Part shown: piece by piece, positions 4,305 to 5,075 of the stretch
How the letters are laid out: the number at the start of each line of letters is the position of its first letter
How positions within the stretch are numbered: the first letter of the stretch is position 1
NCBI RefSeq assembly: GCF_000334495.1
Contig: NW_006159661.1
Span: 881,702 to 894,810 of the forward strand
Reading direction: 5' to 3'
DNA: 13,109 nucleotides
DNA from: Tupaia chinensis
Taxonomy: Eukaryota
The notes under the pieces: generated by a model
Seen by the model: only the letters and a program-made list of their open reading frames with translations
Told to the model about the DNA's origin: nothing
The model's database searches: none
Made by a program: the position numbers and the translations under genes

Positions 4305-5075
4305 AGTTTTTTTTTTTTTTTAAGTGTAAAGATTTGCTTTATTTCTACTGGAGGAAGGAGGGGGATAAGTAGAACTGTTTTCCAATTTGTTTTCCACTGT
4401 ATACACACACACATATACATACTTTCACCAAAAATAACCCAACAACAATAACAACAAAAATCAAAAACCAAAACACCCTTACGCTGCACCAATACTTCAT
4501 ATTTTGACCAAAAGAATAGATCGTGGGAGGAAGTGAGAAATGCAAAATCAAATGACAAAAAAATGCTGAACAAACAGCATTATTAATATACAAAATATTT
4601 ATATTACTGAACTAGTAACAGGTGATGTTCTCCGTGTCTGTAAAACTTTGGAACCACGTAACTGATTTGTTAAATCTAGTCCATGCCAGTTTCCAAAACC
4701 AGAAAAGATTTTAGTTAGCTTCGTTCTTTGATGCCTATCAAAATTTTCTACAAGATCTGGAACATCTTCATCCTCTTCATTGGTGTCTTCTGGTTTTCAT
4801 GCTTTGCTATCCAAGACTTTCTGTGAGGTCTGTCCAGTTAATTTCCTAAGGCTTGTTAAGCTGTCTGCACCAAGCTGACTTAATATTCCAGGAAGCATTT
4901 CTGTGATTGTTTTTGGCTTCTGCATGAGCAGTAACTGCAAAGGTATTAGCAGAGAGGGAAGCTTGGACTTTGGGATTGTTGAAATGAATAACTGTCCCAT
5001 CGTCTTTAATCATGTTCACCTATATAAACTGACTTTTCAGATTTGAATTCATCCATTGCCCGGGACGTACTGAAA
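4305..5075 (-). pseudogene. BTF3L4: Processed (retrotransposed) pseudogene of BTF3L4-like NAC-beta
   Basis: The minus-strand translation gives [34 protein letters not shown] | [24 protein letters not shown]...[27 protein letters not shown] | EASKNEAN*. This matches the C-terminal ~110 aa of BTF3L4 as I remember it ([59 protein letters not shown]...[35 protein letters not shown]).

The copy is contiguous and intronless. It is disabled by a +1 insertion (gccaaaAacaatc), a TGA stop where the parent has a Pro codon, and a 1-bp deletion (gat-ag-gca versus GAT GAG GCA). The 3'UTR ends in AATAAA (rc of 4338-4343) followed 17 nt later by a 17-nt poly(A) (T-run at 4305-4321 on the + strand).

The 5' end is truncated or deleted near 5040-5075, and the 5' boundary is uncertain. 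Confidence 0.85.

What the first reader, a model, noticed from the sequence alone, without database searches (positions are those of the whole stretch)
4305..5075. BTF3L4 (NAC-beta family) processed pseudogene with a preserved poly(A) signal and tail
The minus strand carries a contiguous, intronless copy of the C-terminal two thirds of BTF3L4 coding sequence plus ~390 nt of 3'UTR. It ends in AATAAA followed 17 nt later by a 17-nt poly(A), the signature of LINE-mediated mRNA retroposition.

Three disabling lesions can be read directly:
- a 1-bp insertion after ...HAEAK;
- a TGA replacing the Pro codon in DSKA-P-KPED;
- a 1-bp deletion in GAT GAG GCA, which shifts the last 9 codons. Restoring that base recovers [8 protein letters not shown]-stop exactly.

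The 5' end is lost around the '[10 protein letters not shown]' region. None of the ORF-track ORFs in 4292-5000 is a real gene; they are fragments of this relic.

The copy is BTF3L4-like rather than BTF3-like ([36 protein letters not shown]).
Basis: partly seen in the sequence, partly recalled or inferred. Interest (0 to 1): 0.6.

Follow-up and report, generated by a model that had tools for sequence, protein, structure and literature searches.

The report
Full-length BTF3L4 processed pseudogene
This is an ordinary dead retrocopy of the BTF3L4 (NAC-beta-like) mRNA, but it is complete rather than 5'-truncated and was copied from an unproductive splice form that skipped the start-codon exon and included a stop-containing extra exon.

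Summary

The claim that the 5' end is lost is wrong. The copy runs from 5698 to 4307 (1,392 nt). It is flanked by a 9-nt target-site duplication, AACTACAAA, at 5708-5700 and 4308-4300.

Its parts, in order:
- 5'UTR exon 1
- exon 3, with the ATG-bearing exon 2 precisely absent
- a 492-nt segment at 5511-5020
- exons 4, 5 and 6

The 492-nt segment is not junk or a later insertion. It matches a stretch inside the parent gene's intron in chimpanzee, camel, pangolin, mole-rat and beaver. There it is bounded by an AG acceptor and a GT donor, and it carries an in-frame TAG six codons in. It is therefore a cassette ("poison-type") exon that was spliced in.

Substitutions specific to the window copy fall evenly over codon positions (9/8/12). 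Between functional parents the split is 0/0/23, so the copy has evolved without constraint.

Two small corrections: the A run is 15 nt, not 17, and lies 16 nt, not 17, after AATAAA.

This is a known kind of element and of low interest. The only mild point of interest is that it is a fossil of a non-canonical isoform.

The parts
5700..5708 (-). 5' target-site duplication, AACTACAAA. It extends to a 14-nt match, AAAATAACTACAAA, if one mismatch is allowed.
   Evidence: This is the longest exact match between the 5' flank and the 3' flank. A junction-adjacent 9-mer match arose in 65 of 20,000 random segment pairs.
5699..5699 (-). An extra G between the target-site duplication and the first templated base. 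It may derive from the mRNA cap; this is an inference.
   Evidence: The base before GTCTTTCTC is T or C in the pangolin, mole-rat, beaver and camel parent loci, never G.
5623..5698 (-). Parent exon 1 (5'UTR, 76 nt), starting with the pyrimidine-rich GTCTTTCTCTG
   Evidence: 90-94% identity to exon 1 of four BTF3L4 loci; coordinates.
5512..5622 (-). Parent exon 3 (GTARRKKK...IAGIEE), 111 nt against 114 nt in the parents. It carries a 3-bp deletion, a 2-bp deletion and a 2-bp insertion. Exon 1 is joined directly to it, so exon 2 (MNQEKLAKLQAQVRIGGK) is absent.
   Evidence: The same exon 1-exon 3 junction appears in the annotated or assembled isoforms P0005 and P0006.
5020..5511 (-). Cassette exon of the parent gene (492 nt here, 419 nt in pangolin). 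It has an in-frame TAG six codons in.
   Evidence: The segment is homologous to a stretch of the parent intron between exons 3 and 4. That stretch is bounded by a ..ttyCAG| acceptor in Pan, Camelus, Manis and Fukomys, and by a |GTRAA donor in Pan, Camelus and Manis; translation.
5142..5202 (-). (CA)n microsatellite inside the cassette exon. It is an expansion of a short ACACA seed seen in the parents.
4817..5019 (-). Parent exon 4 (VNMIKDD...FPRQ), carrying a 1-bp insertion at about 4912
4757..4816 (-). Parent exon 5, with TGA at 4799-4797 in place of Pro130
4322..4756 (-). Parent exon 6. It holds the last coding codons, with a 1-bp deletion at about 4737. The stop TAA is at 4713-4711, the 3'UTR is 389 nt, and AATAAA is at 4343-4338.
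   Evidence: 86-89% identity to the last exon of five mammalian BTF3L4 loci. Homology ends at the point where the parent loci stop aligning, which is presumably the parental cleavage site.
4307..4321 (-). Poly(A) tail, a run of 15 A. The last two A's overlap the 3' target-site duplication.
4300..4308 (-). 3' target-site duplication, AACTACAAA

Best explanation
The element is a full-length, LINE-1-type processed pseudogene of BTF3L4, the paralogue of NAC-beta/BTF3. It lies on the minus strand at 5698-4307 and is flanked by a 9-nt target-site duplication.

**Mechanism.** A capped, polyadenylated BTF3L4 transcript was reverse-transcribed at a nicked A-rich site and integrated. This mechanism is inferred from the structure.

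**Source transcript (shown).** It was not the canonical mRNA. Exon 1 is joined directly to exon 3, so the exon carrying the ATG is missing. A roughly 420-nt cassette exon from the intron between exons 3 and 4 is included. That exon carries an in-frame stop and shifts the reading frame.

**Consequence.** The copy could not encode full-length protein from the day it inserted.

**Later decay (shown).** It has since picked up a premature TGA, six indels, 18 non-synonymous substitutions and a (CA)n expansion.

**Age (inferred).** Roughly 15-30 million years. This rests on 6.1% change at first and second codon positions and on assumed neutral rates of 2.2-4.5e-9 per site per year.
For: **Homology**
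- tblastn gives E = 1e-39.
- The NAC domain scores 67 bits.
- BTF3L4 proteins are the best hits, at E = 5e-66.

**Match to the parent gene**
- The window aligns collinearly with a spliced model of the pangolin gene (exon 1 + exon 3 + cassette + exons 4, 5, 6). There are 1,108 matches and 205 mismatches, 84% identity.
- All five junctions are exact. The parent loci show GT...AG introns at each of them.
- The parent loci lie next to a thioredoxin-domain gene, as expected for BTF3L4.
- Exon 2 is present in the parents and absent from the window.
- The exon 1-exon 3 junction is also seen in the isoforms P0005 and P0006.

**Cassette exon**
- It is found with splice sites in Pan, Camelus and Manis. 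The acceptor is also present in Fukomys, and Castor has the homologous stretch.

**Retroposition marks**
- AATAAA, a 15-A tail and the AACTACAAA duplication are present.
- Homology starts at the same base in four parents.

**Relaxed constraint**
- Window-specific changes by codon position are 9/8/12. Between the pangolin and mole-rat parents they are 0/0/23. Fisher's exact test gives P = 2.7e-6.
Against: - The parent gene of the window's own species could not be fetched because the species is unknown. Exon boundaries and parental states are therefore inferred from five other mammals.
- The nick site implied by the 9-nt duplication (..AGTT/AT..) fits the L1 endonuclease consensus TTTT/AA only loosely. 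The 14-nt reading with one mismatch gives TTTT/GA.
- There is no direct transcript evidence for an isoform that combines exon-2 skipping with cassette inclusion.
- The cassette is not more conserved than the intron around it: 82% against 78-81%.
Confidence: 0.93

Rival explanations
1. The retrocopy is 5'-truncated and begins near 5019-5075. Anything upstream is unrelated sequence.
For: 5' truncation is common in L1-mediated copies (established knowledge). Protein similarity does stop at 5019 if only the contiguous sequence is read.
Against: - Exon 3 and exon 1 of BTF3L4 are present at 5622-5512 and 5698-5623, on the same strand and in the same order.
- The sequence between them and exon 4 comes from the parent gene.
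- The target-site duplication brackets the whole 1.4 kb.
- No duplication is seen at 5020-5110.
Confidence: 0.01
2. The retrocopy was originally canonical between exons 3 and 4, and the 492-nt block is a later insertion of unrelated DNA such as a transposable element.
For: The block holds a microsatellite. It interrupts the reading frame exactly between two codons.
Against: - The block is 80-88% identical to a single stretch of the BTF3L4 intron in five mammals.
- It starts and ends exactly at that stretch's AG and GT.
- It has no flanking duplication beyond 3-4 nt.
- It matches none of the window's repeat families.
Confidence: 0.02
3. It is a semi-processed copy with a retained intron, or a DNA-level duplicate that later lost its introns.
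For: Intron-derived sequence sits between two exons.
Against: - In the pangolin parent the block lies about 14 kb downstream of exon 3 and about 735 bp upstream of exon 4. It is therefore a separate exon, not a retained intron.
- Five introns are removed precisely.
- The copy carries a poly(A) tail at the parental 3' end and a target-site duplication.
- The flanks do not match the parent locus.
Confidence: 0.02
4. It is a functional retrogene, for example one encoding the short isoform that starts at MIKDDG. On this view the apparent lesions are sequencing errors.
For: The ATG of MIKDDG is intact at 5013-5011. Short BTF3L4 isoforms are annotated elsewhere; this rests on my own recollection and was not verified.
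Against: - From that ATG the frame breaks after 34 codons, and a TGA and a second frameshift follow.
- There are 18 non-synonymous changes in a protein that is invariant between the pangolin and mole-rat parents.
- Substitutions are spread evenly over codon positions.
Confidence: 0.02

Closest known systems
LINE-1-mediated processed pseudogenes (retrocopies) of housekeeping and translation-related genes, including the human BTF3L4P and BTF3P series. The names of those series are recalled from memory and were not checked here.
   Same: - It is intronless.
- It ends at the parent's poly(A) site with an A tail.
- It is flanked by a short target-site duplication.
- It lies at a locus unrelated to the parent.
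- It is decaying neutrally.
   Different: Nothing essential differs. It is full length rather than 5'-truncated, and it derives from a non-canonical splice form.
Retrocopies as fossils of alternative splice variants. The reference is Shemesh et al. [quoted passage not shown] Its existence is confirmed by the reference list read. Its content is recalled, because the paper was not held.
   Same: The copy preserves two alternative splicing events of the parent gene: skipping of exon 2 and inclusion of a cassette exon.
   Different: The preserved isoform is an unproductive one, with no canonical ATG and with an exon that carries a stop.
Poison (NMD-type) cassette exons of genes
   Same: - In the parent genes the cassette has AG/GT splice sites.
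- It has a conserved in-frame TAG six codons in.
- Its length is not a multiple of three (419 nt in pangolin).
   Different: - NMD sensitivity and regulated inclusion were not tested.
- Unlike the classic ultraconserved poison exons, this exon is no more conserved than its flanking intron.

Membership tests
Processed pseudogene (L1-type retrocopy) | Sequence homology to the mature mRNA of a multi-exon parent gene, UTRs included | tested here: met
   Exons 1, 3, 4, 5 and 6 and the 3'UTR align to five mammalian BTF3L4 loci at 80-94% identity.
Processed pseudogene (L1-type retrocopy) | Introns absent exactly at the parental exon-exon junctions | tested here: met
   There are five exact junctions. 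The parents show GT...AG at each.
Processed pseudogene (L1-type retrocopy) | Poly(A) tail directly after the parental polyadenylation site | tested here: met
   AATAAA is at 4343-4338 and the 15-A run is at 4321-4307. Homology to the parents ends at 4322.
Processed pseudogene (L1-type retrocopy) | Flanking target-site duplication | tested here: met
   AACTACAAA occurs at 5708-5700 and 4308-4300. A chance match of this kind arose in about 0.3% of random pairs.
Processed pseudogene (L1-type retrocopy) | Integration at an L1 endonuclease-type site (TTTT/AA on the nicked strand) | tested here: inconclusive
   Read. The 9-nt duplication implies ..GTAGTT/ATTTTG... The 14-nt duplication with one mismatch implies ..TTATTTT/GAATC...
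Processed pseudogene (L1-type retrocopy) | Located away from the parent locus | tested here: met
   Only the exonic pieces of the window, plus simple repeats, match the parent loci. The window flanks are SINE-like repeats.
Processed pseudogene (L1-type retrocopy) | Loss of coding capacity and neutral evolution (a pseudogene, not a retrogene) | tested here: met
   There is a TGA and there are six indels. Substitutions by codon position are 9/8/12, against 0/0/23 in the parents (P = 2.7e-6).
Derived from BTF3L4 rather than BTF3 | Closer in protein sequence, and UTR and intron-derived sequence matches the BTF3L4 locus | tested here: met
   238 bits against 188 bits. Diagnostic residues are [15 protein letters not shown] and LPGILSQ; the 3'UTR, 5'UTR and cassette match loci encoding BTF3L4, which lie next to a thioredoxin-domain gene.
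   Homology runs to the first base of exon 1 in four parents.
Poison (NMD-type) cassette exon in the parent gene | Bounded by functional-looking splice sites in the gene, and introduces a premature stop upstream of later junctions | tested here: met
   The acceptor is ..ttyCAG| and the donor is |GTRAA. GTC TTG CCN GAA AYT TAG is conserved in the window, Pan, Camelus and Manis.
Poison (NMD-type) cassette exon in the parent gene | Transcripts that include the exon are degraded by NMD, and inclusion is regulated | not testable with these tools
   No expression data are available. The only hint is a figure legend in PMC6771400, which mentions an alternatively spliced BTF3L4 exon without saying which one.

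The most novel reading that the evidence does not exclude
The retrocopy is a dated fossil showing that an unproductive BTF3L4 isoform was present in the germline some 15-30 million years ago. That isoform skips the start-codon exon and includes a stop-containing cassette exon, whose splice sites are found in primates, artiodactyls, pangolins and rodents. This would point to long-standing unproductive splicing of a NAC-beta paralogue, possibly used to regulate it.
Probability: 0.3. Interest if true: 0.3.

Novelty: already known. Interest (0 to 1): 0.15.

Why it matters
For annotation, the pseudogene should be drawn as one 1.4-kb element at 4300-5708, not as a 0.77-kb truncated relic. The ORFs inside it should be discarded.

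Its wider value is small. It illustrates that retrocopies can preserve non-canonical isoforms, even non-coding ones. It also gives independent, sequence-only evidence that the conserved stretch of the BTF3L4 intron is used as an exon.

Tried and rejected
- **Unfetched parent loci.** Look-ups for the bat isoform P0005 and the gundi protein P0015 found nothing on record.
- **Crocodilian loci (L001-L004).** They gave exon positions, but no match to exon 1 or to the cassette.
- **Primate 17-aa insert.** I tested whether the in-frame insert in P0059 and P0055 corresponds to the cassette. It does not.
- **Cassette conservation.** I tested whether the cassette stands out as a conserved island. Between pangolin and mole-rat it is 80% identical against 73% for the neighbouring intron. 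Between chimpanzee and camel it is 82% against 78-81%. I therefore make no claim of special conservation.
- **SINE-like repeat.** ARAGORN and Rfam found no tRNA or other RNA family in the window or in the repeat next to the element. Its class and the species remain unidentified.
- **Literature.** Searches found nothing specific on BTF3L4 pseudogenes or on NMD isoforms of the gene. The key paper on retrocopies as splice-variant fossils was not held.

Full report
**1. What the sequence shows**

Read on the minus strand, 5019-4711 translates in three frame segments to [36 protein letters not shown] / [57 protein letters not shown] / (E)ASKNEAN*. tblastn with a BTF3L4 protein gives a combined E of 1e-39.

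The repaired translation matches the Pfam NAC domain at 67.3 bits, against a cut-off of 21.3. In a database of 5.8 billion proteins its best hits are all BTF3L4, at 84% identity, E = 5e-66 and 238 bits. BTF3 proper, taken from solved NAC-ribosome structures, scores 188 bits. It differs at the diagnostic positions: MFTNQGT against MIKDDGT, SLAANTFT against SLSANTFA, and LPSILNQ against LPGILSQ.

- a 1-bp insertion after HAEAK, at about 4912;
- TGA in place of Pro130, at 4799-4797;
- a 1-bp deletion in GAT GAG GCA, at about 4737.

The 3'UTR is 389 nt and AATAAA is at 4343-4338. The A run is 15 nt (4321-4307), not 17, and begins 16 nt after the signal.

**2.

The same tblastn run found a third piece at 5646-5509: [38 protein letters not shown]. 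The N-terminal part is therefore not lost.

I fetched BTF3L4 gene loci with their introns from the following species:
- crocodilians (L001-L004);
- pangolin (L005);
- Damaraland mole-rat (L006);
- chimpanzee (L007);
- beaver (L008);
- camel (L009).

In crocodilians, pangolin and beaver the locus lies next to a thioredoxin-domain gene.

blastn of the window's minus strand against these loci gives a collinear series. The window ranges below are the blastn alignment ranges; the exact exon boundaries are listed in section 3.

| Window | Pangolin L005 | Identity |
|---|---|---|
| 5698-5622 | exon 1 (5'UTR), 3667-3743 | 90-94% across species |
| 5627-5510 | exon 3, 10441-10561 | about 86-88% across species |
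| 5513-5198 and 5137-5035 | 24566-24970, inside the intron between exons 3 and 4 | 80% and 68% in pangolin |
| 5025-4830 | exon 4, 25715-25909 | 91% |
| 4818-4757 | exon 5, 26751-26812 | 84% |
| 4762-4322 | exon 6 with 3'UTR, 27336-27782 | 86% |

A global alignment of the window against a spliced model of the pangolin gene is continuous from end to end. The model is exon 1 + exon 3 + intronic block + exons 4, 5 and 6. The alignment has 1,108 matches, 205 mismatches and 84% identity.

**3. Anatomy** (minus strand)

- 5' target-site duplication AACTACAAA: 5708-5700
- an extra G: 5699
- exon 1: 5698-5623
- exon 3: 5622-5512
- cassette: 5511-5020
- exon 4: 5019-4817
- exon 5: 4816-4757
- exon 6: 4756-4322
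- A run: 4321-4307
- 3' target-site duplication: 4308-4300

A junction-adjacent 9-mer match of this kind arose in 65 of 20,000 random pairs of window segments. Allowing one mismatch, the duplication extends to 14 nt, AAAATAACTACAAA.

Homology to all four parents that include exon 1 starts at the same base, GTCTTTCTCTG, just downstream of a GC-rich tract. The copy therefore reaches the likely transcription start. The G at 5699 is T or C in all four parents. That fits an untemplated, cap-derived G, but this is an inference only.

**4. The source transcript was non-canonical**

*Exon 2 is missing.* Exon 2 encodes MNQEKLAKLQAQVRIGGK and carries the start codon. It is present in the parent loci (pangolin 6938-6991, mole-rat 7675-7728) and absent from the window. 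In the window, exon 1 ends ...CCCTGCTTCAG and runs straight into GGTACAGCTCAC of exon 3. The same junction (...GVGGPSLLQ|GTARRKKK) is seen in a bat protein annotated as isoform 3 (P0005) and in an assembled transcript product (P0006).

*The 492-nt block is a cassette exon.* In the parents the homologous stretch is preceded by a pyrimidine tract and CAG (..tctgtrttyCAG|GTCTTGCC) in chimpanzee, camel, pangolin and mole-rat. It is followed by a GT donor (TTG|GTGAAA, GTAAAA, GTAAAT) in chimpanzee, camel and pangolin. In pangolin it lies about 14 kb downstream of exon 3 and about 735 bp upstream of exon 4, so it is a separate exon and not a retained intron.

The cassette opens GTC TTG CCN GAA AYT TAG, an in-frame stop six codons in, and this is conserved in all four. 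The pangolin length of 419 nt is not a multiple of three. In structure it is a poison-type exon. It is not more conserved than its flanking intron between chimpanzee and camel (82% against 78-81%), so I claim nothing beyond conserved splice sites.

The (CA)n tract at 5202-5142 is an expansion within this exon. It is absent from the parents.

**5. Decay**

Exon 3 carries three further indels: a 3-bp deletion, a 2-bp deletion and a 2-bp insertion.

At sites where the pangolin and mole-rat coding sequences agree, the window has 9, 8 and 12 specific substitutions at codon positions 1, 2 and 3. Of these, 18 are non-synonymous and 11 synonymous. The two functional genes differ from each other at 0, 0 and 23 sites and encode identical proteins over this region. 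Fisher's exact test gives P = 2.7e-6. The copy has evolved without constraint.

The 6.1% change at positions 1 and 2 becomes 6.4% after Jukes-Cantor correction. That converts to about 29 million years at 2.2e-9 per site per year, or about 14 million years at 4.5e-9. The rates are assumed and CpG changes inflate the figure, so this is a rough inference.

**6. Mechanism**

*Shown:*
- precise removal of introns at five junctions;
- a 3' end at the parental poly(A) site followed by an A tail;
- a flanking duplication;
- flanks unrelated to the parent locus.

*Inferred from established knowledge of L1 target-primed reverse transcription:* an L1 endonuclease nick in an A-rich site primed reverse transcription of a BTF3L4 transcript. 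The site lies just downstream of the A-rich tail of a SINE-like repeat at 5775-6018. The implied nick site fits the TTTT/AA consensus only loosely.

Because the template lacked the ATG exon and carried a stop-containing exon, the copy was non-coding on arrival.

**7. Rivals**

- *A truncated copy:* refuted.
- *A later insertion of foreign DNA:* refuted by the block's homology to the parent intron and its exact AG and GT borders.
- *A retained intron or a DNA-level duplicate:* refuted by the distances in the parent and by the poly(A) tail and duplication.
- *A functional retrogene:* refuted by the lesions and the codon-position pattern.

**8. Limits**

- The species is unknown and its own BTF3L4 locus was not available.
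- No expression data could be consulted.
- Literature searches found nothing specific on this gene's pseudogenes or NMD isoforms.
- That retrocopies can preserve splice variants is established knowledge (Shemesh et al. 2006). I cite that paper from memory. Only its listing in a reference list was confirmed, because the paper itself was not held.

**9. Verdict**

This is an ordinary processed pseudogene. It was correctly recognised, but drawn too short and wrongly described as truncated. Interest is low.

Noticed in passing
window 753-997, 2366-2609, 2640-2889, 3612-3744, 5775-6018, 9035-9167; inverted copies at 1868-1969, 8675-8846, 9742-10004: A single SINE-like repeat family of about 250 nt, with an A-rich tail, occurs at least nine times in 13 kb at 74-93% mutual identity. 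Two copies lie head to tail (TRF period 279). ARAGORN and Rfam find no tRNA or 7SL signature in it. None of the copies interrupts the retrocopy. The family could identify the species.
   Followed up: partly
window 11000-13109: This stretch is GC- and CpG-rich (GC 0.52-0.55). It holds two ATTGG (inverted CCAAT) boxes at about 12070-12125, and a very CpG-dense end at 12800-13109. It may be the promoter or CpG island of a neighbouring gene.
   Followed up: no
window 5142-5202: A (CA)n microsatellite of about 31 units has grown inside the retrocopied cassette exon. The seed is a short ACACA that is present but unexpanded in the chimpanzee, camel and pangolin parents.
   Followed up: yes
L007 (Pan) 24999-25432; L009 (Camelus) 19643-20079; L005 (Manis) 24568-24986; L006 (Fukomys) from 26526: The BTF3L4 intron between exons 3 and 4 holds a cassette of about 420 nt. 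It has a conserved AG acceptor, a GT donor and an in-frame TAG. In Fukomys its 3' part diverges from the other species and reads (by eye) like a rodent SINE insertion, and in Castor the homologous stretch is interrupted. It is no more conserved than the neighbouring intron.
   Followed up: partly
proteins P0059 (Pan troglodytes) and P0055 (Saimiri): The primate protein annotated as BTF3L4 isoform X1 carries a different, in-frame 17-aa insert (LDVTVPCYAEIQIRASF) at the same exon 3/exon 4 junction. It is not encoded in the window, the pangolin locus or the mole-rat locus.
   Followed up: partly
window 3000-3100, 8933-8978, 9017-9049, 10620-10656: Further simple repeats are present: (TC)n, (GA)n, (TTATT)n, (GA)n and (AC)n.
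   Followed up: no
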